DNA from: a virus
IMG/VR virus record: IMGVR_UViG_3300025030_000012
Length of the DNA stretch: 64,000 bases
Direction: 5' to 3' (one strand)
The notes below the pieces were generated by a model that was not told the origin of the DNA, made no database searches, and was given only the letters and a program-made list of their open reading frames with translations. Below, one piece after another: positions 11,891 to 40,493 of this stretch. The first letter of the stretch is position 1, and each line of letters opens with the position of its first letter. The position numbers and the translations under genes are program-made.

Positions 11891-13216
11891 TTAAGCGGCA
11901 CAGGCGTCCTGGCTCTCACTTGCGCGCACGTACTCTATGACGCTCTCACTCCATCCGTCGATGTGATGCCATGCACCGTAGCCGACACCGTTCTTGTTGC
12001 TGGCGACGTTGATGCAGTACGCCTTACCGCGCGGCGCACAGATGCCGTCAGCACTTTGCTCGTCGGTGATGACAACGATGCGGTCATAGACGTTCTGAGG
12101 ATTGTCGTGAATTGCCTTCAGCGTAGCGGCAAGATACGTTCCTTGATGGGGTTGGCTTGCCACGACGGCATCGCGCAGCGCAAAGCCACGGCGTGGCGGC
12201 ACTTGCACAAGCGTGTTTGAGAATGTCACCACCAAGACCTCCTCGCAGACTTCGCGCAGCAACATCGCTACACCGCAAGCAGCATCGACCCGTTGCAGAT
12301 CGGACTTGCTGGAAATTGGGTGATCCATAGAACCAGACACATCCACGAGCAGCACGGTCTTGCCTGTCAACATTTCTTGTGTTCCGGCGCATTGCAGCAT
12401 CAGCGGTTCAAGGATAGGCTCGAGTTGTGGCATCACTCGCGCAGCCGCGATGAAGCGGAATGGAAGGACGCGCTCGACATTGAGCGTACCTGCATAGCCG
12501 GCAAGCGTTGCATCGCTGACTCCGGCTTGCTTCATGTTGCGAAGGTTGCGCAGAAAAGCCAGCGCTCCAAGCTGCTTCTCCGCCATCAGCCGTTCGAAGG
12601 TGGCTTTCTTGTCGGCACCACCAGACAGCGCGACTTCCCATGTATCCGGCGTGACGAGCTTACCGTCGATCAGACGCTTCCATAGCGCCTCACGTTCGGG
12701 TGTGTCCGGCTTGGCGTGGCACAGAAACAGCGCATCGCGCAATTTCACCGCGCCGTCGCGGTTGTACTTGGCAAGGGCGTACTCGTTGAACTTGAGGAAC
12801 GCCGCAGCGAGCCCGAGCTTGACTTGCTTCGAAACCTTTTCCCGACCTGACTTCCAGTACAGCGCGAGGAACTCGGTTATCTCATCTGCGCGTTGAATAA
12901 CATCAGGCAAGAGCTTCCCGACCAGCGCCTTGTGCTGCGGCAACCGCGCCATTTCACGCACCAGCAACAGCGGAACGTGGCGCAGTTTCATTTTGGTACG
13001 CGCTTCGAAGGCGCAGGCCGCGACGAACTCTGGGCGGCAAAGCGGAATCAGGGAGGCGATGCGCTTGGCGATATCCTCGCCGGATTCGTAGAAGGAATCC
13101 TCCCAAAGAAGGCAGGCTGCGACCGAGCGGCGCAACTGCTGTTCTGGCGTGGTTCGCGCCGCCTGCGCGCCTTCATGGGTTTTCTCGGTGAACTTCTGAG
13201 CTACGTTGACTTTCAT
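11891..13216 (-). CDS. rsr: Ro60/TROVE-domain RNA-binding protein with C-terminal vWA domain
   Basis: TROVE-type LRRSVAACLLWEDSFY...EARTKMKLRHVPL...TWE...ALLR-like AFLRNLRNM; vWA MIDAS LLVDVSGSM and ITDEQ; SD AAAGGAG before ATG at 13216. Confidence 0.93.
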   Translation of the reverse strand: MKVNVAQKFTEKTHEGAQAARTTPEQQLRRSVAACLLWEDSFYESGEDIAKRIASLIPLCRPEFVAACAFEARTKMKLRHVPLLLVREMARLPQHKALVGKLLPDVIQRADEITEFLALYWKSGREKVSKQVKLGLAAAFLKFNEYALAKYNRDGAVKLRDALFLCHAKPDTPEREALWKRLIDGKLVTPDTWEVALSGGADKKATFERLMAEKQLGALAFLRNLRNMKQAGVSDATLAGYAGTLNVERVLPFRFIAAARVMPQLEPILEPLMLQCAGTQEMLTGKTVLLVDVSGSMDHPISSKSDLQRVDAACGVAMLLREVCEEVLVVTFSNTLVQVPPRRGFALRDAVVASQPHQGTYLAATLKAIHDNPQNVYDRIVVITDEQSADGICAPRGKAYCINVASNKNGVGYGAWHHIDGWSESVIEYVRASESQDACAA

Positions 13217-13245
13217 TTCGCCACTCCTTTGAGGGTTAAACTGCA

Positions 13246-13336
13246 TCGGGGAACGGGCTCGCGCGGGTAGCTGGGTTCGATCCCAGCAAAGGCCGAAGCC
13301 CTCTTAACCAGAAGTAACCGCACAATTCACCACCGA
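13246..13336 (-). ncRNA. Y RNA-like ncRNA 3 (YrlA-like tRNA mimic)
   Basis: UCGG/CCGA closing stem, GGUGAA...CCGUUCC motif, 8-bp UUGUGCGG/CCGCGCGA stem, UUCG hairpin and T-arm-like GCUGGG-AUCGAA-CCCAGC. Confidence 0.75.
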
Positions 13337-13343
13337 ATAATGC

Positions 13344-13434
13344 TTGCGGGAACAATCAACTACCGTTTTGTCGTGCGCTGCCTTTCGGCCCGCTTCCGTT
13401 CTCCAATGAAGGAACGGTAATCTTCGCCACGCAA
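13344..13434 (-). ncRNA. Y RNA-like ncRNA 2
   Basis: UUGCG/CGCAA closing stem, GGCGAAG...UUGUUCC motif, AUUACCGUU/AACGGUAGU stem, internal GCC-GAAA-GGC hairpin. Confidence 0.7.
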
Positions 13435-13441
13435 AATCTTT

Positions 13442-13506
13442 GGTTGGGAACAAGCAGCAGCAGGGAGTCAACTTAGAAGGATGAACCTGCTGCCTTCGCC
13501 ACAACC
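13442..13506 (-). ncRNA. Y RNA-like ncRNA 1 (minimal, 65 nt)
   Basis: GGUUG/CAACC closing stem, GGCGAAG...CUUGUUCC motif, GCAGCAGG/CCUGCUGC stem with a pyrimidine-rich loop. Confidence 0.7.
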
Positions 13507-13514
13507 TTGAGTTG

Positions 13515-13543
13515 ACTATAATGATACAAAATCCTCATGTCAA
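13515..13543 (-). promoter_or_regulatory. Sigma70 promoter of the Y RNA-Ro60 operon
   Basis: TTGACA-17 bp-TATAGT; the predicted start site falls at the 5' end of Y RNA 1. Confidence 0.85.
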
Positions 13544-13573
13544 GACCTTAACCAAAATATATTTACGTACCGC

Positions 13574-13604
13574 TTGACAAACCCTAGACAATTTAGCGTA
13601 GAAT
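13574..13604 (+). promoter_or_regulatory. Divergent rightward sigma70-like promoter
   Basis: TTGACA...TAGAAT with a long 19-bp spacer; ATG follows 8 nt after the -10. Confidence 0.5.
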
Positions 13605-13612
13605 TGCTCGCC

Positions 13613-13762
13613 ATGACCTATAAACAGGCGATGTACCACTTCCGCAGGCGCCGCCTGAAGATCAAGGCGCTGCTGGCGAAAGGGCTCACGCCGGCAACGG
13701 TAGCGCGGCGCATTGGGATCTCGCGACAGCGTGTCCACCAGATTTCCAAAGGCCGCACATGA
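13613..13762 (+). CDS. Cro-like HTH protein (49 aa)
   Basis: GLTPATVARRIGISRQRVHQI helix-turn-helix; first gene of the rightward operon. Confidence 0.75.
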   Translation: MTYKQAMYHFRRRRLKIKALLAKGLTPATVARRIGISRQRVHQISKGRT

Positions 13763-29169: not shown

Positions 29170-29576
29170 ACCTTTTCTCCTTCGGTTGTCCAACTCCATG
29201 CGGCCCACGACCGTGAGCCGCCTTCTTTCTGGATCCGGTCCGGCCGGTAGCCGATCCGGTGCAATTCCGCGAGCGTGCAGGGGTGATTCTGGCGATTGTC
29301 GAGGATGCGCGGGCCGTCCTCGGTCTGCGCGACTAGGACGGCGTGATACTCGCCGGTTTCGACGTAGCAGCAAGCCAGCCTCAATGTGTGTGCAGGCCAT
29401 CCGAGATCTGCGAGATAGTTCAGTTTGGCGAGCGCGAAATCCTCGCAGTCATTACCTAATCCATCCGCGCGGTCCCAAAAGTCTGGTTGGTTGTACCGTT
29501 CCGCGTCGCTTTCGTATGGCAGAGCGTTGATATCGTCGTTGACGTGCTGCAGGTCAGTGTGGTTGGGATAGGTCAT
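29166..29576 (-). CDS. Transglutaminase-like cysteine peptidase (BTLCP/LapG-like) catalytic domain
   Basis: VN..IN...D...D.W, DCEDFA (Cys), HAVLV (His), ILDN (Asp) catalytic triad pattern. Confidence 0.88.
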   Translation of the reverse strand: MTYPNHTDLQHVNDDINALPYESDAERYNQPDFWDRADGLGNDCEDFALAKLNYLADLGWPAHTLRLACCYVETGEYHAVLVAQTEDGPRILDNRQNHPCTLAELHRIGYRPDRIQKEGGSRSWAAWSWTTEGEKV

Positions 29577-35333: not shown

Positions 35334-35408
35334 CGCGGGATGGTTGCTGGTAGCCCAGAGGGTCCCATAAGCCCTCGACCGCGAGTTCGATTCTCGCTCC
35401 CGCAACCA
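35334..35408 (+). tRNA. tRNA-fMet-like (CAT), atypical
   Basis: CGCGGGA/TCCCGCA-A-CCA with the C1.A72 mismatch, GGG/CCC in the anticodon stem, T-loop TTCGATT. Confidence 0.75.
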
Positions 35409-35440
35409 AGAATAAAACAGCCGCTCGTCGGCTATACCGC

Positions 35441-35481
35441 GCGGGGCCGGCGAGGGTTGCCAGAACCCTCGCCGGCCCCGC
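35441..35481. other. 18-bp perfect hairpin
   Basis: GCGGGGCCGGCGAGGGTT-GCCAG-AACCCTCGCCGGCCCCGC. Confidence 0.8.
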
Positions 35482-35499
35482 AAACACCATGACAGGGAT

Positions 35500-35525
35500 G
35501 GGGCTCGTTAAGCCCCTTCACTTTT
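35500..35525 (+). terminator. Terminator-like hairpin directly before the terL start
   Basis: GGGGCT-CGTTA-AGCCCC followed by TTCACTTTT. Confidence 0.45.
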
Positions 35526-35526
35526 A

Positions 35527-38151
35527 ATGGATGAAACCAACCTCGAGGAAATGTCGGTCGAGGAATTCCGTGAACTCCAAGCCGAAGCCGACCGCATAGA
35601 ATTCTCCCAGGCGAAAGAAAACTTCGCCGTCTACTGCGGTCTCCACATCCCGGCAGAGGTCGAAAAAGACGACATGCCGAGGCTGCATGAATTGAGCCTG
35701 CCGGCGCGGTACATTCCGGCGACGCATCACCAGTTGATTTGCAAGTTGTTGCAGGCGCTGGAAGAGGGCGAGCTGCATGGGAGGAAGTTCAGGAACCTGA
35801 TTATTCAGGCGCCGCCTGGTAGTGCGAAAGCGCTTGCGCTCGATACGCCGATTCCAACGCCATCGGGCTGGCGCAGAATGGGCGACATGCAGATCGGAGA
35901 TTGCGTATTCGATGAGCAAGGAAAGGTGTGCCGCGTGACATGGGTCAGCCCAATCTTCAAGGACAGGCCGGTCTACAAGGTGCTCACTGACTGCGGAGAC
36001 GAAATCATCGCCGACCATGACCACGAGTGGCGTGCGCGACTTGATAGAAGGCACGGCGCATTCCGAGATCACGAGACACACATCATCGCTCGACGGCGTA
36101 ACAAACGGGCCATGGTAGAGCACGCGAAGGCTCTTGACCTACCAGACGCAAATCTTCCAATCGACCCCTACCTGCTTGGGATGTGGCTCGGAAACGGTAA
36201 CAGCGCAGGACTTCGCATTACTTGCCATCAAGATGATGTTAGCTGGGTGCGCGACGAGCTTGGTCGTCTTGGATATAAGACATCCGATTCATCGTCGCCT
36301 TTGAATTTTGGAGTGCTCGGCGTTCGCCATCTCTTCGTGCAACTCGGTCTAGTCAATGATCCTGCACACAAGACCTATGGGAAAAAATACATCCCCAAGA
36401 TTTACATGCGCGGATCAATAAGGCAACGGCTCGCACTGGTTCAAGGGCTCATTGATTCGGATGGAACGGTTAGCAACAAGCAAGGATCTGCGACGTTCTG
36501 CAACACCAACGAATGGCTGGCATTGCAGTTCAGAGAACTGGTGCGCTCGCTCGGCGTCAAGGCTGGATGGTCGGTGTCAAAGGCAATGCTCTATGGCGTC
36601 CAACATGGTATGGCCTATCACGTTTCCTTCTACATGAAGGAGGCCGCGCGCTCTCCACGAAAGAGCGCAAACGCGAGAGATCAGTACCGAACTCCAAACA
36701 CGTATATCTCAGCGGAGCCATGCGGGACTGCGGATACGATCTGCATCGAAGTTGATTCACCATCTCATCTCTATCTATGTGGCGAGTCAATGACTCCTAC
36801 GCACAACAGCACCTACTGTTCGCATTTATTTCCATCGTGGTATCTCGGCAAACATCCAGCATTTAATGTGATTCAGGGATCACAGACGGATGATCTTGCC
36901 CATCGCTTTGGACGTAGAGCGAGAAACACGTTTGCAAGTGAACTGCATCACAAGGTCTTCAATGTTGGCGTCGCGTCAGATTCGCGCGCAGCAGGTTCTT
37001 GGGAAACAGAGAAAGGTGGCGAATACTTTGCCACTGGCGTTCAACCTTTTGCCGGAAGACGCGCGGAACTCCTTTGTATCGACGACGCCATCCGGGGACA
37101 AGAGGATGCGGATTCGCAAAATGTTCTGGACAAGATTTGGAACTGGTATGTTCATGATGCCTGGCCTCGCCTGAAACCGCACGGAAAACAGGTCATCGTT
37201 TCAACAAGATGGTCAGAGGGGGACATCATCGGCCGCATCATCCCCAAAACCTTCGCCGGCAAAACCGGATGGGTCAAGGGCAAAGACGGCGAGATGTGGT
37301 ACGTCCTCTGTTTGAAAGCCGTGATCGAGACCGAAGAGGACGCCGCCAACGATCCGCTCGGGCGCAAGGTGGACGAGATCCTGTGGCCGGAATGGTTCAC
37401 CCGCGAGATGATGGACACCGCCAAGGTCAAGGCCGGGATCAGAGGCTGGGCCGGGCAGTACCAGCAGATGCCAAGACCCGAAGGCGGAGCCATTCTGCTC
37501 TCGAACTGGTGGCGCGAATGGAAACAGGAACTGCCGAAAGTCGAGTACGTCATCCAGGTCTACGATACGGCTTTCGAGGAAGGCGAGGAAAACTCCTACT
37601 CGGCTCGAACAACCTGGGGAATCTTTTCTCACACAGATACCCTGCAAAAGAAGGATGGTCTCAACGTCGAGCGGACACGATACTGCTGCATCCTGCTTGA
37701 GGCGTGGCGCTCCAAGTGTGAATTCACCGAACTGCGGGATGAGGCGAAACGGGGATACAAGCGATACCGGCCGGACCGGGTGCTGATCGAGAAGCGGGCC
37801 AGCGGCCATTCACTTTTGCAAGAACTCCGCCGCGCCGGACTCCCGGTACGCCCGGCAAATCCGAAGTGGATGGGGCGCTCCAAGCGTGCCCGTGCCTACG
37901 CCGCTCAGACCGTGCTCGAGGACGGCTGCGTCTTCTACCCCTGCAAGTTCAGGGAAGGGACGTGGACGCCTTACTCGTGGGCGCTGCCGGTGGTCGACGA
38001 GGTCGCCGGCTACCCGGATGGAGAATTCACCGATTACGCCGACACTGCCATCCACGCCTGGCTCTGGCTGCGCCAGCACTGGCACCTGAAGCTGACCGAC
38101 GAGGACGAGGACAAGCCGGTGGAGAAACGACGCATCCAGATGTTTGGGTAG
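35527..38151 (+). CDS. terL: Terminase large subunit, intein-containing
   Basis: Walker A APPGSAK|ST, Walker B LLCIDD, STRW motif, nuclease domain DTAF, VLIEKRASG, DYAD. Confidence 0.95.
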   Translation: MDETNLEEMSVEEFRELQAEADRIEFSQAKENFAVYCGLHIPAEVEKDDMPRLHELSLPARYIPATHHQLICKLLQALEEGELHGRKFRNLIIQAPPGSAKALALDTPIPTPSGWRRMGDMQIGDCVFDEQGKVCRVTWVSPIFKDRPVYKVLTDCGDEIIADHDHEWRARLDRRHGAFRDHETHIIARRRNKRAMVEHAKALDLPDANLPIDPYLLGMWLGNGNSAGLRITCHQDDVSWVRDELGRLGYKTSDSSSPLNFGVLGVRHLFVQLGLVNDPAHKTYGKKYIPKIYMRGSIRQRLALVQGLIDSDGTVSNKQGSATFCNTNEWLALQFRELVRSLGVKAGWSVSKAMLYGVQHGMAYHVSFYMKEAARSPRKSANARDQYRTPNTYISAEPCGTADTICIEVDSPSHLYLCGESMTPTHNSTYCSHLFPSWYLGKHPAFNVIQGSQTDDLAHRFGRRARNTFASELHHKVFNVGVASDSRAAGSWETEKGGEYFATGVQPFAGRRAELLCIDDAIRGQEDADSQNVLDKIWNWYVHDAWPRLKPHGKQVIVSTRWSEGDIIGRIIPKTFAGKTGWVKGKDGEMWYVLCLKAVIETEEDAANDPLGRKVDEILWPEWFTREMMDTAKVKAGIRGWAGQYQQMPRPEGGAILLSNWWREWKQELPKVEYVIQVYDTAFEEGEENSYSARTTWGIFSHTDTLQKKDGLNVERTRYCCILLEAWRSKCEFTELRDEAKRGYKRYRPDRVLIEKRASGHSLLQELRRAGLPVRPANPKWMGRSKRARAYAAQTVLEDGCVFYPCKFREGTWTPYSWALPVVDEVAGYPDGEFTDYADTAIHAWLWLRQHWHLKLTDEDEDKPVEKRRIQMFG
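35830..36807 (+). mobile_element. Class 3 (Ala1, WCT) intein (326 aa) with LAGLIDADG endonuclease
   Basis: Starts ALALDTPIPTPSGW; block B DHDHEW, block F DTICIEV, block G TPTHN then Ser+1; LLGMWLGNG and LVQGLIDSDG motifs. Confidence 0.9.
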
Positions 38152-38152
38152 G

Positions 38153-38558
38153 TGGCGGAAGGCTGAAGAATCGAACTCCGAACCCTGCTTAGGTGTCCCC
38201 CTGGTTTTCGACTAAATCGTTTTGCGTGTTTCAGTTCTGATGGCGTGACAGTTGGCGCATACCACGTCACATTTTGCAATCTCAGCATGTAGGACGGCGA
38301 TGTTTTTGATCTTGGCTGTGGCGCTGCCGATAGCGAGGTTCTTCTTGCCACGAACATGATCGAACTGCATCGCGCAGGTAGGATACTCAATGCCGCAATC
38401 GGCGCATGGCCTTGCTTTTGCCAACCCGATCACACGCCTGATCTCGGCGCGACGCTCGCGCGTATAGATCGTCATATACGCCCGCTGTTTCTTTTGGTCC
38501 GAGTATGGCAAGATAGTTGAATACTAACATGGAACGGACCGTTCCAGCGGAGCCTTCC
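38153..38558 (-). pseudogene. tRNA-Ser(CGA) split by an HNH cassette (5' part about 38538-38558, 3' part 38153-38211)
   Basis: GGAAGGC pairs with GCCTTCC-G-CCA; the 3' part begins T-CGA-AA-ACCAG and has a long variable arm and T arm. Confidence 0.7.
38212..38511 (-). CDS. HNH endonuclease inserted in tRNA-Ser(CGA)
   Basis: CADCG...FDHVRG...CDVVCANCH; the TAG stop abuts U33 of the tRNA. Confidence 0.85.
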   Translation of the reverse strand: MPYSDQKKQRAYMTIYTRERRAEIRRVIGLAKARPCADCGIEYPTCAMQFDHVRGKKNLAIGSATAKIKNIAVLHAEIAKCDVVCANCHAIRTETRKTI

Positions 38559-38566
38559 GTTGATGG

Positions 38567-38661
38567 TGGCGGAAGGTGCAGGACTTGAACCTGCGCGGCC
38601 CTACTGAGGTGCCGACTTCATCTTAGCAGGATGATGCATTACCGGGCTCTGCCAACCTTCC
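38567..38661 (-). tRNA. tRNA-Ser(GCT)
   Basis: GGAAGGT/ACCTTCC-G-CCA, TCATC-CT-GCT-AA-GATGA, long variable arm. Confidence 0.92.
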
Positions 38662-38689
38662 GATGATTAGGAAGATCGACTTGATCGGG

Positions 38690-38761
38690 CGAACCGTATG
38701 GGAGTCGGACCCATCTTGACAGGTTGAAAGCCTGTTGGCCTCACCGGAAGCCGAACGGTTC
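38690..38761 (-). tRNA. tRNA-Glu(TTC), variant T-loop, no encoded CCA
   Basis: GAACCGT/ACGGTTC, ACAGG-CT-TTC-AA-CCTGT, T-loop TCCGACT. Confidence 0.8.
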
Positions 38762-38815
38762 CGGTGGTCTCTCGTGTAAGCGCGGTTTTCATGGTGTAAA
38801 AAGTATATCAGGTTT

Positions 38816-38893
38816 TGGTGCGCCCGGAAGGATTCGAACCCTCGACCCGTGAGGTAGAAGCTCACTGCTCTTGATCCACTGAGCTACGGGCGC
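38816..38893 (-). tRNA. tRNA-Arg(TCT)
   Basis: GCGCCCG/CGGGCGC-A-CCA, GTGAG-CT-TCT-AC-CTCAC. Confidence 0.93.
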
Positions 38894-38894
38894 T

Positions 38895-38971
38895 TGGCCC
38901 GCCGAGTAGGATTCGAACCCACAACCTCCGCGTTCGAAGCGCGGCGCTCTTGTCCGTTGAGCTATCGGCGG
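38895..38971 (-). tRNA. tRNA-Arg(TCG)
   Basis: CCGCCGA/TCGGCGG-G-CCA, CCGCG-CT-TCG-AA-CGCGG. Confidence 0.93.
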
Positions 38972-38998
38972 CAGAATTATCTGCGCCGACGCCTGAGT

Positions 38999-39075
38999 TG
39001 GTGCTGCTGGCAGGGAATCGAACCCGCGACCGCTTGCTTACGAGGCAAGTGCTCTACCGCCTGAGCTACAGCAGC
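38999..39075 (-). tRNA. tRNA-Thr(CGT)
   Basis: GCTGCTG/CAGCAGC-A-CCA, CTTGC-CT-CGT-AA-GCAAG. Confidence 0.9.
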
Positions 39076-39124
39076 GATGCGCGTTCGTGTTGTGGTTTCC
39101 ATGACCGGCATGATACATGAATGT

Positions 39125-39199
39125 TGGCGACGCAGAAGGGATTCGAACCCTCATCGTACGGATAGACAATCCGTTGCATTGCCTGTCTGCCACTGCGCC
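39125..39199 (-). tRNA. tRNA-Asp(GTC)
   Basis: GGCGCAG/CTGCGTC-G-CCA, ACGGA-TT-GTC-TA-TCCGT. Confidence 0.9.
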
Positions 39200-39202
39200 A
39201 AT

Positions 39203-39278
39203 TGGCTCCTGGGGTAGGACTCGAACCCACGACCCGCTCCTTAACAGGGAGCCGCACTACCTGCTGTGCTACCCAGGA
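39203..39278 (-). tRNA. tRNA-Asn(GTT)
   Basis: TCCTGGG/CCCAGGA-G-CCA, GCTCC-CT-GTT-AA-GGAGC. Confidence 0.93.
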
Positions 39279-39282
39279 ATTC

Positions 39283-39358
39283 TGGTGGAGATGATCGGAA
39301 TCGAACCGACGCGCTTCCGGTTGCAGGCCGGATGCTCTCCCTGCTGAGCTACATCCCC
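39283..39358 (-). tRNA. tRNA-Ala(TGC)
   Basis: GGGGATG/CATCTCC with G3.U70, TCCGG-CC-TGC-AA-CCGGA. Confidence 0.92.
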
Positions 39359-39365
39359 GAAATTC

Positions 39366-39436
39366 TGGAGCGGTCTGCGAGGATCGAACTCGCGCTGCCG
39401 GCTTGGAAGGCCGTTACACGCCAACGTGGAGACCGC
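39366..39436 (-). tRNA. tRNA-Gly(TCC) with truncated D arm
   Basis: GCGGTCT/AGACCGC-T-CCA, D arm ACG-TTGG-CGT, CT-TCC-AA loop. Confidence 0.8.
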
Positions 39437-39462
39437 GTCGGCGGCATTGTACTTCAAAAGTG

Positions 39463-39539
39463 TGGTACCCCGGAAAGGATTCGAACCTTCAATAGCCTCG
39501 TTCTAAGCGAGGAGACTTTGCCATTTTGTCCACCGGGGC
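39463..39539 (-). tRNA. tRNA-Leu(TAG) with short variable loop
   Basis: GCCCCGG/CCGGGGT-A-CCA, CCTCG-CT-TAG-AA-CGAGG, 5-nt variable loop. Confidence 0.88.
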
Positions 39540-39545
39540 GTTATT

Positions 39546-39630
39546 TGGTGATGAGTGATGGAGTCGAACCACCTATGCCGAGCATGCTTGAGGGTTACAG
39601 CCTCACCGATTGCCGTTCTCGCAACTCACC
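39546..39630 (-). tRNA. tRNA-Tyr(GTA)
   Basis: GGTGAGT/ACTCATC-A-CCA, TGAGG-CT-GTA-AC-CCTCA, long variable arm. Confidence 0.92.
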
Positions 39631-39631
39631 T

Positions 39632-40159
39632 TGGTGGGCCTGCTGGGACTCGAACCCAGAACATCTTCACGCTTGGCTATGACAGTTTGGGCAAAGGAAT
39701 CGAAGATTCTTCTTCCTATCGTCCAACCTATTCCTATTACGATGATCCACATCCAATACCAGAGGCTTACCTTTCCATTCTGGCCCCAACCCACACTGCT
39801 CACATAGATGGGGGACCCCACTCTCAATCAAAGCCCTTCGCAAATACGCCGCACCTTGTCTGTCACCAACATCACGTTTAACTAAAATACTTGCCGCTGT
39901 TCTCCTTGGCTGTTTCTTTCCTTTGTTCCATGCTCTACCTGTGAAATGACTGGTGTCTACCCCAGCCCTCTGCATCCTTCTTCGTATGTGCCCATGGCTA
40001 CCCCCAGGGAGCAATATACCCAAAAATCTCAACACCCCTGTGATGGAGGTTGAATTCTCTGCGGCTTCATGAAGTTGATCATCTGAATAGCGTGGCATTC
40101 GCTATTCTAACACGAAATTACAGAGAGGCAAGCGCGACTGCCAATTGCGCCACAGGCCC
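39632..40159 (-). pseudogene. Leu-like tRNA split by an HNH cassette (5' part about 40126-40159, 3' part about 39632-39681); anticodon unresolved
   Basis: GGGCCTG/CAGGCCC-A-CCA, Leu-type D arm GCGCAATTGGCAGTCGCG, then CTTGC-CT; the 3' part has CCAAG, a variable arm and T arm CTGGG-TTCGAGT-CCCAG. Confidence 0.7.
39667..40098 (-). CDS. HNH endonuclease inserted in the Leu-like tRNA
   Basis: CEQCG...LDVDHRNRNRLDDRKKNLRFLCPNCHSQ; the last codons overlap the tRNA 3' half. Confidence 0.9.
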   Translation of the reverse strand: MPRYSDDQLHEAAENSTSITGVLRFLGILLPGGSHGHIRRRMQRAGVDTSHFTGRAWNKGKKQPRRTAASILVKRDVGDRQGAAYLRRALIESGVPHLCEQCGLGPEWKGKPLVLDVDHRNRNRLDDRKKNLRFLCPNCHSQA

Positions 40160-40200
40160 AGCGTTTAGCTGAGTCGGTATCGCAATCGTAAAGGCGCTTG

Positions 40201-40275
40201 GGGGTGACTGGTGAGAGTCGAACTCACGATAAGGGAGTCACAATCCCTTGGCTTGGCCGCTTGCTGACAGCCACC
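40201..40275 (-). tRNA. tRNA-His(GTG)
   Basis: G-1 GTGGCTG/CAGTCAC-C73, AGGGA-TT-GTG-AC-TCCCT. Confidence 0.88.
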
Positions 40276-40324
40276 CCGAAACGTCCTTCGTCCGGTGCGA
40301 AGTGGGCGGCAATGTCGGGATTTG

Positions 40325-40397
40325 CGGGGGCGGCTGGACTCGAACCAGCGACCAACGATGTCAAAGACCGTTGCTCTACCAACTGAGCTACGCCCCT
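40325..40397 (-). tRNA. tRNA-Gln(TTG), no encoded CCA
   Basis: A1.C72 mismatch, G2-C71, G3-C70, G73; ACGGT-CT-TTG-AC-ATCGT. Confidence 0.8.
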
Positions 40398-40418
40398 TGA
40401 TCGTCTGTCGTTTTAGGT

Positions 40419-40493
40419 TGGTCAGAGCGGAAAGATTCGAACTTTCGACAACCGGCTTCCAAAACCGGGACTCTACCCCTGAGCTACGCTCTG
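40419..40493 (-). tRNA. tRNA-Pro(TGG)
   Basis: CAGAGCG/CGCTCTG-A-CCA, CCGGT-TT-TGG-AA-GCCGG. Confidence 0.92.

What the first reader, a model, noticed from the sequence alone, without database searches (positions are those of the whole stretch)
11891..13543. Phage Ro60 transcribed with three tandem Y-RNA-like RNAs from one sigma70 promoter
Seen: a TTGACA-17-TATAGT promoter starts right at the first of three closed hairpin modules (65, 91 and 91 nt). Each has GG(C/U)GAA on the 5' strand and (UU/CC)GUUCC on the 3' strand, and the TROVE/vWA gene follows directly. Known: the GNCGAA(G)/CUUG helix is the Ro60-binding element of Y RNAs, and YrlA-type RNAs are tRNA mimics. Module 3 has a UUCG stem and a T-arm-like hairpin. 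Modules 1 and 2 carry different effector domains (an open pyrimidine loop, and a GNRA hairpin). Inference: one Ro60 is loaded with three adaptor RNAs and expressed first in infection. It may redirect host RNA decay (PNPase) or handle cleaved tRNAs from anticodon-nuclease defences. No rtcB/rtcA or RtcR is present, so the unit is uncoupled from the usual bacterial RNA-repair operon.
Basis: partly seen in the sequence, partly recalled or inferred. Interest (0 to 1): 0.88.

Follow-up and report, generated by a model that had tools for sequence, protein, structure and literature searches.

The report
Phage Ro60 with three Y RNAs
An uncultured soil or groundwater phage carries a gene for the ring-shaped RNA-binding protein Ro60, preceded by three small partner "Y" RNAs made from one strong promoter; the signal is real and well supported, but this pairing is already published for other phages and bacteria.

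Summary
On the minus strand, a near-consensus sigma-70 promoter (TTGACA-17-TATAGT) ends 7-8 nt before three stem-closed RNA modules: M1 13506-13442, M2 13434-13344 and M3 13336-13246. A Ro60 gene (TROVE + vWA, 13216-11891) follows.

I built a covariance model from 22 short modules found upstream of Ro60 homologues in other phage contigs. In the 64-kb window it finds exactly these three sites and nothing else up to E = 10. M2 and M3 were not in the training set.

Across 79 modules from 35 sources, 91% of cells pair. 17 of 18 pairs show compensatory changes, and every hit lies on the Ro60 strand. The same arrays precede this Ro60 subfamily in 72 of 80 bacterial loci, mostly Acidobacteriota.

Each window module belongs to a recurring class: short, "GNRA-box", and T-arm-only. 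None matches Rfam YrlA.

The kind is known:
- Chen et al. 2014 reported Y RNAs beside Ro60 in 254 bacteria and 22 phages.
- Hu et al. 2025 showed that Thermus phage phiLo Ro60 binds two Y-like RNAs encoded upstream of its gene and attenuates host PNPase.

This scan has also flagged phage Ro60 with Y-like RNA arrays on other DNA before.

Expression, Ro60 binding, timing in infection and function are all untested here. Verdict: a new member of a known kind, of modest interest.

The parts
13538..13543 (-). -35 hexamer TTGACA of the array/Ro60 promoter
   Evidence: Promoter scan, (11 of 12 matches, 17-nt spacer). The sequence was read directly.
13515..13520 (-). -10 hexamer TATAGT. The predicted transcription start is at A13508/A13507, 1-2 nt before the M1 stem.
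   Evidence: A similarly placed sigma-70-like promoter (at least 9 of 12 matches) precedes 10 of 28 related arrays, against 0.6% of random positions. The start site itself is inferred, not measured.
13442..13506 (-). Module M1 (65 nt), 'short' Y-like RNA. Closing stem GGUUG/CAACC, handle UGGCGAAG...CUUGUUCC, 9-bp stem 2, open pyrimidine-rich loop.
   Evidence: Fold. R1 score 66.8 bits (M1 was in the training set). Near-equivalents with compensatory changes are L005 2271-2337 and L003 2276-2342.
13344..13434 (-). Module M2 (about 91 nt), 'GNRA-box' class. It has the same handle and stem 2, plus a small UUC/GAA hairpin and the conserved insert GGAAGCGGGCCGAAAGGCAGCGCAC (13397-13373). The insert folds as GCG-G-GCC-GAAA-GGC-AG-CGC.
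   Evidence: R1 score 50.7 bits, E 3e-12, not in the training set. The box was found in 10 IMG/VR contigs. In 9 of them it lies inside an R1 module just upstream of a Ro60 homologue.
13246..13336 (-). Module M3 (about 91 nt), 'T-arm-only' class. Handle variant UGGUGAAU...CCCGUUCC, then GGUUACUUC, a UUCG hairpin (13302-13289) and a T-arm-like hairpin (13287-13270). There is no acceptor-like stem and no D arm.
   Evidence: R1 score 38.4 bits, E 1e-8, not in the training set. Its class is aligned with Tenjo, Kikimora, CcrPW, L024 and L030 modules. It does not match Rfam YrlA even at E <= 10.
13224..13229 (-). Ribosome-binding site AAGGAG, 7 nt before the Ro60 ATG.
   Evidence: Read directly from the sequence. 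No terminator-like site lies between M3 and the start codon.
11891..13216 (-). Ro60 orthologue (P0001, 441 aa): a TROVE HEAT-repeat ring plus a vWA domain with the MIDAS motif DVSGS (residues 292-296).
   Evidence: Pfam TROVE 43 bits and vWA_Ro60 30.5 bits, both above their cut-offs. PHROG 850 'RNA-binding protein', E 2.9e-44. phiLo Ro60 (9KOP/9L5Y), E 9e-25. AlphaFold model with pLDDT 83.8 matches 9KOP at TM 0.75, Rsr 2NVO at 0.68 and Xenopus Ro 1YVP at 0.65.

Best explanation
The stretch 13543-11891 (minus strand) is a phage-borne Ro60/Y-RNA cassette.

Proposed mechanism: one strong host-type (sigma-70) promoter starts transcription 1-2 nt before the first of three tandem Y-like RNAs and reads on into the Ro60 gene. 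Host RNases then probably cut the 7-nt A/U-rich spacers and release RNAs of about 65, 91 and 91 nt.

Each RNA has the same 'handle': a closing stem, then the bulged helix UGG(C/U)G(A/U)AG paired with (U/C)UGUUCC, then a 9-bp stem. By analogy with solved Ro-Y RNA complexes, this handle is where Ro60 binds. Each RNA also has a different apical 'effector' part: an open pyrimidine-rich loop, a conserved GNRA-capped hairpin box, or a variable-arm plus T-arm fragment of a tRNA mimic.

The likely result is three alternative Ro60 particles that couple Ro60 to different host partners. Host PNPase, or tRNA-handling enzymes, are the leading candidates. The probable purpose is to reshape RNA decay or quality control early in infection.

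Shown here: the sequence features, the Ro60 fold, covariation, strict linkage to Ro60 in gene and strand, the recurrence of each module class, and the recurrent promoter placement.

Inferred: transcription, processing, Ro60 binding, the partners, the timing and the benefit to the phage.
For: Protein identity: Ro60 by sequence and by fold, TM 0.65-0.75 to solved Ro60 structures.

RNA family:
- In a MAFFT alignment of 22 short modules, 92.6% of cells pair, against 38-56% when the partners are slid. The covariation score is 0.709 against at most 0.18, and no shuffle out of 500 reaches it.
- RNAalifold independently predicts the same two helices.
- Stem 2 was not used to select the modules. It pairs at 92.9%, and 8 of its 9 pairs have double changes.
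- Model R1 finds only M1, M2 and M3 in the window at E <= 10.
- R1 finds 79 modules in 35 sources, all on the Ro60 strand. 17 of 18 pairs show compensatory changes, including GC to AU (70:9) in the otherwise invariant GG/CC pair.
- In five whole phage genomes (840 kb) every R1 hit lies beside Ro60.
- 180 hits in 72 of 80 bacterial Ro60 loci are all upstream and on the same strand.

Links to known Y RNAs:
- T+D modules of the same family in Tenjo and CcrPW give sub-threshold Rfam YrlA hits of 30-56 bits.
- The handle contains the GNCGAAN0-1G motif of bacterial Y RNAs in M1 and M2 (PMC4201824).

Promoter: placement is conserved, 10 of 28 arrays against 0.6% of random positions.

Precedent for function: phiLo Ro60 binds two Y-like RNAs encoded upstream of its gene, forms complexes with host PNPase and slows PNPase by about 70-76% in vitro (PMC12135203).

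Context: the cassette heads a leftward operon (RecT-like, DUF6745) that diverges from an HTH regulator and a replication initiator. This is an early-region layout.
Against: - There is no expression or binding evidence of any kind for this phage.
- Single-sequence folding energies are only modestly better than shuffles, and the whole 294-nt leader gives z = -1.2.
- None of the three modules matches Rfam YrlA or any Rfam Y RNA model, even at E <= 10.
- M3's handle (GGUGAAU) departs from the published GNCGAAN0-1G motif.
- M3's 'T arm' has a 6-nt loop beginning with A, not the canonical 7-nt UUCRANY loop.
- The window has no full tRNA-like (T+D) Y RNA. Chen et al. 2014 reported at least one in each species they examined.
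- No terminator or second promoter separates the RNAs from the Ro60 coding sequence, so they could stay part of the mRNA leader.
- The closing-stem covariation is partly inflated, because my first regex required at least 4 closing pairs.
- A4 is fitted to the model's structure, so its pair counts lean towards that structure.
Confidence: 0.85

Rival explanations
1. The three hairpins are not released as separate RNAs. They form a structured 5' leader of the Ro60 mRNA, which Ro60 binds in cis to regulate its own translation or stability.
For: - One promoter, and no terminator or RNA 3'-end signal between M3 and the start codon, which is 29 nt away.
- In nearly all relatives the last module ends 20-60 nt before the Ro60 start, with only a ribosome-binding site between them.
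- A fourth GUGGCGAA copy lies between the RBS and the ATG in the window.
Against: - In several loci modules of the same family lie downstream of Ro60: L012 3929-5370, L021 3964-4030, L028 3893-3959, L035 3353-3420 and phiLo L032 3484-3547. Position relative to the start codon is therefore not what is conserved.
- Bacterial YrlA and YrlB are detected as discrete Rsr-bound RNAs although encoded beside rsr (PMC4201824).
- The GUGGCGAA at the RBS is shared only with the close relative L004.
- The two roles are not mutually exclusive.
Confidence: 0.1
2. The modules are tRNA-derived decoys or remnants that act without Ro60. They might be baits for anticodon nucleases or tRNA-modifying enzymes, and sit next to Ro60 only by descent.
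For: - 22 of 85 family members carry a circularly permuted T+D tRNA-like domain, and 11 carry a T arm only, M3 among them.
- The phage encodes 14 tRNAs.
- Earlier notes of this scan report Ro60-independent tRNA-like RNAs with other protein partners (unchecked).
Against: - M1 and M2, and 37 'short' modules in all, have no tRNA-like feature. They still keep the covarying handle.
- The conserved part is the handle, not the tRNA-like part.
- Every genome-wide hit lies beside Ro60 on its strand.
- The handle carries the motif known to contact Ro60 (PMC4201824).
Confidence: 0.04
3. The hairpins are chance structures in an intergenic promoter region and have no function.
For: Single-sequence z-scores are modest, -1.2 for the whole leader and -1.7 to -3.0 per module.
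Against: - M2 and M3 were detected independently by a model trained on other genomes, at E 3e-12 and 1e-8, with no other hit in 128 kb of sequence.
- Covariation is extensive.
- Each module's class recurs elsewhere.
Confidence: 0.01

Closest known systems
Thermus phage phiLo Ro60 with Yrl1/Yrl2 (Hu et al., NAR 2025, PMC12135203; PDB 9KOP, 9L5Y)
   Same: - It is a phage-encoded Ro60 with Y-like RNAs encoded just upstream of the gene.
- It is the best sequence match (E 9e-25) and the best fold match (TM 0.75) of the window's protein.
- Neither phage carries a PNPase gene of its own in the stretch examined.
   Different: - The proteins share only about 24-28% identity, and the window protein is shorter (441 against 500 aa).
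- The published Yrl1 and Yrl2 were chosen by a CGAA motif plus RNAfold. They do not match my family model.
- The only R1 hit in the phiLo genome lies downstream of the gene.
- The window has three modules of recurring classes, and covariation supports them. phiLo has binding and cryo-EM data, and the window has none.
Bacterial Rsr with YrlA/YrlB (Salmonella Typhimurium, M. smegmatis) and the YrlA RNAs near Ro60 in 254 bacteria and 22 phages (Chen et al. 2014, PMC4201824; Rfam RF02553)
   Same: - Several Y RNAs lie on the same strand beside Ro60.
- The handle carries GNCGAAN0-1G (M1 and M2).
- The conserved YUAY after the stem appears here as GGUUACUUC.
- The effector parts are modular, tRNA-like in YrlA and not in YrlB.
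- T+D members of the window's RNA family give sub-threshold YrlA hits in Tenjo and CcrPW.
   Different: - No window module reaches Rfam YrlA even at E <= 10.
- The window lacks any full T+D tRNA-like Y RNA. M3 keeps only the variable-arm and T-arm portion.
- There is no rtcBA linkage.
- The RNAs lie upstream of Ro60 and directly at a sigma-70 promoter, which I inferred from sequence and did not compare with the Salmonella operon.
Deinococcus radiodurans Rsr-Yrn1-PNPase (RYPER) complex
   Same: This is the working model for mechanism: the Y RNA handle binds Ro60 and the effector loop tethers PNPase. The fold match to Rsr 2NVO is TM 0.68.
   Different: Yrn1 is a single, larger RNA with a different sequence. 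In that system the complex specialises PNPase for degrading structured RNA, whereas phiLo Ro60 attenuates PNPase. Which of these applies here, if either, is unknown.
Ro60 loci of Xanthomonas phage Tenjo and its relatives, and of Caulobacter phages CcrPW/CcrColossus
   Same: They carry the same Ro60 subfamily (49-54% identity) and the same RNA family in tandem upstream arrays, 5 modules in Tenjo and 8 in CcrPW. CcrColossus is listed among phages with Y-like RNAs in PMC12135203.
   Different: These arrays include full T+D (YrlA-like) modules and the window's array does not. In the GenBank records the arrays are unannotated intergenic gaps.

Membership tests
Ro60 / Rsr (TROVE + vWA ring protein) | TROVE domain and Ro60-type vWA domain detected above the curated thresholds | tested here: met
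   Pfam TROVE scores 43.1 bits against a cut-off of 23, and vWA_Ro60 scores 30.5 bits against 27.7. The TROVE hit covers only residues 196-269, so the N-terminal repeats are divergent.
Ro60 / Rsr (TROVE + vWA ring protein) | Full-length fold like the solved Ro60 rings | tested here: met
   The AlphaFold model (pLDDT 83.8, pTM 0.71) matches 9KOP at TM 0.75, 2NVO at 0.68, and 1YVP and human Ro60 at 0.65, over about 450-520 aligned columns. I did not inspect ring closure itself.
Ro60 / Rsr (TROVE + vWA ring protein) | MIDAS motif DxSxS in the vWA domain | tested here: met
   D292, S294 and S296 (DVSGS) are invariant in 25 homologues.
Ro60 / Rsr (TROVE + vWA ring protein) | Binds Y RNA | not testable with these tools
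   This needs EMSA or a pull-down.
Bacterial/phage Y RNA (Ro60-associated ncRNA) | Encoded next to Ro60 on the same strand | tested here: met
   The modules lie 29-290 nt upstream of the Ro60 ATG on the same strand. All 79 and all 180 family hits elsewhere are on the Ro60 strand.
Bacterial/phage Y RNA (Ro60-associated ncRNA) | The 5' and 3' ends pair into a stem that carries a conserved bulged helix, supported by covariation | tested here: met
   91-93% of cells pair, 14 of 18 (A1) and 17 of 18 (A4) pairs have compensatory changes, and the slid and shuffled controls score far lower.
Bacterial/phage Y RNA (Ro60-associated ncRNA) | GNCGAAN0-1G motif near the 5' end (Chen et al. 2014) | tested here: inconclusive
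   M1 and M2 read GGCGAAG, which meets the motif. M3 reads GGUGAAU, which does not. The family consensus here is GG(C/U)G(A/U)AG.
Bacterial/phage Y RNA (Ro60-associated ncRNA) | A discrete, stable small RNA bound by Ro60 in vivo | not testable with these tools
   No RNA data could be examined for this sequence. This needs Northern blots, small-RNA-seq or a Ro60 pull-down.
YrlA (Rfam RF02553) | Score at or above the Rfam gathering threshold of 69 bits | tested here: not met
   There is no YrlA hit in 13100-13700 even at E <= 10. Relatives' T+D modules reach 30-56 bits.
YrlA (Rfam RF02553) | tRNA-like domain with a T arm, an acceptor-like stem and a D arm | tested here: not met
   M3 has only a UUCG hairpin and a T-arm-like hairpin with a 6-nt AUCGAA loop. 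No module has a D-arm sequence. M1 and M2 have no tRNA-like feature at all.

The most novel reading that the evidence does not exclude
The window shows a Ro60 system that works without any full tRNA-mimic Y RNA. Its three module classes (short open loop, 'GNRA box', and variable-arm plus T-arm fragment) would be distinct, exchangeable adaptor heads on one common Ro60 handle, each recruiting a different host partner.

On this reading the GNRA box GGAAGCGGGYCGNAAGRCAGCGCAC is an undescribed protein- or RNA-docking element that phages and Acidobacteriota share. It is conserved in 10 of the 11 contigs that carry it, always inside a Y module next to Ro60. The phage would deploy the whole set from its first early promoter to take over host RNA decay.
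Probability: 0.25. Interest if true: 0.55.

Novelty: new member of a known kind. Interest (0 to 1): 0.33.

Why it matters
The finding adds a well-supported, unannotated example to the small set of phage Ro60/Y-RNA systems. Its by-product may be more useful: a covariance model and alignment of the shared Ro60 'handle', which recognises about 260 modules in phage contigs and Acidobacteriota genomes. Most of these are invisible to Rfam YrlA because they lack the tRNA-like domain.

This shows that tandem arrays of short Y RNAs with swappable heads are the norm for this short (about 440 aa) Ro60 subfamily. It also points to one conserved head, the GNRA box, whose partner could be looked for.

It does not open a new kind of biology. 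The concept, the phage occurrence and a plausible function (PNPase capture) are already in print.

Tried and rejected
- Rfam search of the whole window at gathering thresholds: only tRNAs.
- Rfam search of 13100-13700 at E <= 10: no Y RNA or YrlA hit, only two chance-level matches.
- ARAGORN: no tRNA or tmRNA in the region.
- My first regex finder (TGG[CT]G ... TTCC plus at least 4 closing pairs) was too loose. It gave about 14 background hits in the window, so I replaced it with the covariance model.
- Public sequencing runs: 20 DNA holders from groundwater and soil metagenomes in 11 studies, and no RNA holder listed. I therefore did not lay reads.
- No whole genome is held for the window, so the host could not be assigned. 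The likeness to Acidobacteriota Ro60 (59-63% identity) is only a hint.
- Autoregulation through the GUGGCGAA copy at the RBS: not conserved beyond L004, so dropped.
- Rfam search around the GNRA box in L044, to see whether the box mimics a known RNA: nothing but a nearby tRNA.
- The published phiLo Yrl1/Yrl2 region does not match R1, so I could not tie the window's handle directly to the RNAs that were shown to bind experimentally.
- R1 finds nothing beside the Ro60 genes of crAss001 or Rhizobium phage TM30. Their partner RNAs, if any, are too divergent for this model.
- The apical 3-bp helix (UUC/GAA against AUC/GAU) is only suggestive. 10 of 14 UUC modules carry a downstream GAA and none a GAU. 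6 of 8 AUC modules carry a downstream GAU, and 3 of those 8 also carry a GAA. It does not apply to M1.
- I did not use complex prediction, which tests protein-protein pairs only.
Full report
**What is in the sequence**

The finding lies on the minus strand.
- A promoter, TTGACA (13543-13538), 17 nt, TATAGT (13520-13515), matches 11 of 12 consensus positions. It is the only promoter-like site between 11700 and 13800.
- Seven to eight bases after the -10 element lie two A residues (13508/13507). The closing stem of the first hairpin starts at 13506.
- Three stem-closed modules follow, separated by 7-nt A/U-rich spacers: M1 13506-13442, M2 13434-13344 and M3 13336-13246.
- After a further 29 nt, which contain AAGGAG, comes the ATG at 13216 of a 441-aa protein (P0001). 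The ORF list gives 13246 as the start, but that ATG lies inside M3 and has no ribosome-binding site.
- The 5' strands read GGCGAAG, GGCGAAG and GGUGAAU. The 3' strands read CUUGUUCC, AUUGUUCC and CCCGUUCC.

Taken alone, the folds are only modestly better than shuffled sequence (z = -3.0, -1.9 and -1.7 per module; -1.2 for the whole leader). The case therefore rests on comparison with relatives.

**The protein is a Ro60**
- Pfam finds TROVE (43 bits) and the Ro60-type vWA domain (30.5 bits), both above their cut-offs.
- PHROG 850 'RNA-binding protein' matches at 2.9e-44.
- The only solved-structure sequence hits are the Ro60 of Thermus phage phiLo, 9KOP/9L5Y, at E 9e-25.
- An AlphaFold model built on 25 homologues (pLDDT 83.8) superposes over its full length on phiLo Ro60 (TM 0.75), D. 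radiodurans Rsr (0.68), and Xenopus and human Ro60 (0.65).
- The MIDAS residues D292, S294 and S296 are invariant.
- At about 440 aa the protein belongs to a shorter subfamily than the 500-540 aa reference proteins.

**The RNAs belong to a large family linked to Ro60**

Ro60 homologues in Xanthomonas phage Tenjo and Caulobacter phage CcrPW are preceded by unannotated gaps of 670 and 1370 nt. These gaps hold 5 and 8 modules of the same build. Some of those modules carry a T arm and a D arm and give sub-threshold Rfam YrlA hits of 30-56 bits, against a gathering score of 69.

I fetched 29 IMG/VR contigs that encode relatives of P0001 (40-69% identity). Most have one to six such modules directly upstream of the gene.

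I aligned 22 short modules with MAFFT (A1) and wrote the structure as a closing stem, a GG/CC pair block, a CG/UG block and a 9-bp stem 2.
- 92.6% of cells pair, against 38-56% when the 3' partners are slid by 1-3 columns.
- The covariation score is 0.709 against at most 0.18, and no shuffle out of 500 reaches it.
- RNAalifold predicts the same helices without being told.
- One caveat: my first regex demanded at least four closing pairs, so the closing-stem statistics are partly built in. Stem 2 was not selected for. It pairs at 92.9%, with double changes in 8 of 9 pairs.

**Specificity of the model**

The covariance model R1, built from A1, gives the following results.
- In both strands of the 64-kb window at E <= 10 it finds exactly three sites: M1 (66.8 bits, in the training set), M2 (50.7 bits, E 3e-12) and M3 (38.4 bits, E 1e-8). 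M2 and M3 were not in the training set.
- Over 35 sources it finds 79 modules at E < 1e-4, every one on the Ro60 strand.
- On that model-fitted alignment 17 of 18 pairs show compensatory changes. In the otherwise invariant first G-C of the GG/CC block the counts are GC 70 and AU 9, with no broken pair.
- In five complete phage genomes (840 kb in all) every hit lies beside the Ro60 gene.
- A scan of species-representative bacterial genomes returned more than 580 relatives of this Ro60. The best 80 are mostly Acidobacteriota/Terriglobia MAGs, on contigs of up to 2.4 Mb.
- R1 finds 180 modules in 72 of those 80 loci, all upstream and all on the same strand.

The cassette is therefore not peculiar to phages. 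It is the normal form of this Ro60 subfamily.

**Each window module represents a recurring class**

Of the 85 modules I tabulated, 37 are 'short' like M1, 22 carry T and D arms (YrlA-like), 11 carry a T arm only like M3, 3 carry M2's box, and 12 are other long forms.

M1 has near-equivalents in L005 and L003 that carry compensatory changes.

M2's apical insert GGAAGCGGGCCGAAAGGCAGCGCAC folds as GCG-G-GCC-GAAA-GGC-AG-CGC.
- An exact-pattern scan of IMG/VR found the box in 10 contigs.
- In 9 of them it sits inside an R1 module directly upstream of a Ro60 homologue of 49-58% identity.
- GCC/GGC changes to GUC/GAC, and the tetraloop varies as GAAA, GCAA or GUAA.

M3 shares the order GGUUACUUC, (U)GGUUGA/AAG, hairpin, T arm with modules in Tenjo, Kikimora, CcrPW, L024 and L030.
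- Its own T-arm hairpin has a 6-nt AUCGAA loop, whereas the relatives have the canonical 7-nt UUCRANY loop.
- It has no acceptor-like stem and no D arm.

None of the three modules matches Rfam YrlA or any Rfam family, even at E <= 10. They are Y-like RNAs, but they are not YrlA members.

**Promoter and context**

A sigma-70-like site with at least 9 of 12 matches, whose -10 ends 4-13 nt before the first module, is present at 10 of 28 arrays. The rate at random positions in the same loci is 0.6%. The design in which the array starts at the transcription start site is therefore conserved.

No terminator-like site lies between M3 and the Ro60 start, so co-transcription is the simplest reading.

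Downstream on the same strand come a RecT-like annealing protein and a DUF6745 protein. Diverging from the promoter region are a small HTH regulator, a PHROG 6028 protein, a replication-initiator-like protein and a resolvase. This looks like an early control region, but timing was not measured.

None of the 28 other large ORFs I scanned carries an RtcB, RtcA or RtcR domain. Two chromosomal Acidobacteriota loci of the same subfamily also lack these neighbours, so the missing link is not a phage speciality.

**Comparison with what is known**

Chen et al. 2014 (PMC4201824):
- They reported YrlA-type Y RNAs within 4 kb of Ro60, on the same strand, in 254 bacteria and 22 phages, often several per genome.
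- They defined the GNCGAAN0-1G motif and the YUAY that follows the stem.
- They noted that further Y RNAs escape bioinformatic detection.

Hu et al. 2025 (PMC12135203):
- They solved the Ro60 of Thermus phage phiLo and identified two Y-like RNAs upstream of its gene.
- They showed binding and ternary complexes with host PNPase, and a 70-76% slowing of PNPase in vitro.
- They list mycobacteriophages, CcrColossus and Bacillus phage G as earlier cases.

This scan has also flagged phage Ro60 with Y-like RNA arrays many times on other DNA. Most of the notes shown there concern a different handle.

**Mechanism and verdict**

Most likely (about 0.85 for identity and about 0.4 for the PNPase-type function), the cassette works as follows. 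It yields three alternative Ro60-Y RNA particles with one handle and three different heads, made from an early host-type promoter, that alter host RNA decay or RNA quality control.

- Shown: sequence, fold, covariation, linkage and promoter placement.
- Inferred: transcription, processing at the spacers, binding, partners and benefit to the phage.

The main rival is a cis-acting leader that autoregulates Ro60. It is weakened because modules of the same family lie downstream of Ro60 in several loci.

This is a new member of a known kind. The useful extras are the handle model, the finding that short, tRNA-less Y RNAs dominate this subfamily, and the conserved GNRA-box head.

Noticed in passing
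window 13217-13224 (-): A fourth copy of GUGGCGAA, the 5' handle motif of M1 and M2, sits between the AAGGAG ribosome-binding site and the Ro60 ATG. Only the close relative L004 has GUGGCG at the same place. The other relatives examined do not.
   Followed up: partly
L032 3484-3547 (Thermus phage phiLo, record positions 29351-29414, minus strand): The only hit of my Y-handle model in the 178.5-kb phiLo genome (27 bits, E about 5e-5) lies 14 nt downstream of the phiLo Ro60 stop and overlaps the annotated CDS phiLo_25. It is not the published Yrl1 or Yrl2, which lie upstream. It may be a third, unreported Y-like RNA.
   Followed up: partly
L044 7940-8060 (-), IMGVR_UViG_3300036859_000186: M2's 'GNRA box' (GAAGCGGGCCGAAAGGCAGCGCAC) also occurs inside a different stem-closed hairpin. 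That hairpin lacks the Y handle, and no Ro60 homologue lies in the 9 kb fetched. Rfam finds nothing there.
   Followed up: partly
L047-L126 (genome contigs): The short Ro60 subfamily (59-63% identical to the window's protein) is very common on large chromosomal contigs of Acidobacteriota/Terriglobia MAGs, with the same upstream arrays of 1-5 modules. This hints at the gene's origin or the phage's host, but neither was tested.
   Followed up: partly
L036 2302-2376 and L035 1852-1936: The GenBank records annotate a 'tRNA-Ser' (Brevundimonas phage Kikimora) and a 'tRNA-Leu' (Microcystis phage Mvi-JY20) immediately upstream of Ro60. These could be the tRNA-like parts of YrlA-type modules rather than true tRNAs.
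   Followed up: no
window 13574-13762 (+): The divergent HTH gene has TTGACA (13574-13579), a 19-nt spacer, TAGAAT (13599-13604) and an in-frame ATG at 13613, only about 9 nt after the -10. Its mRNA may be leaderless. The promoter scan did not report this site because of the 19-nt spacer.
   Followed up: no
window 35334-40493: There are 14 tRNA genes, 13 of them in a minus-strand cluster at 38567-40493. The phage therefore invests heavily in tRNA supply as well as in the Ro60 cassette.
   Followed up: no
L003 and L004, about 40 nt upstream of Ro60: Further modules end in GUUACC instead of GUUCC (for example ...cugUUACCCGCAA). My regex missed them, so the close relatives L003 and L004 have more modules than one search lists.
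   Followed up: no
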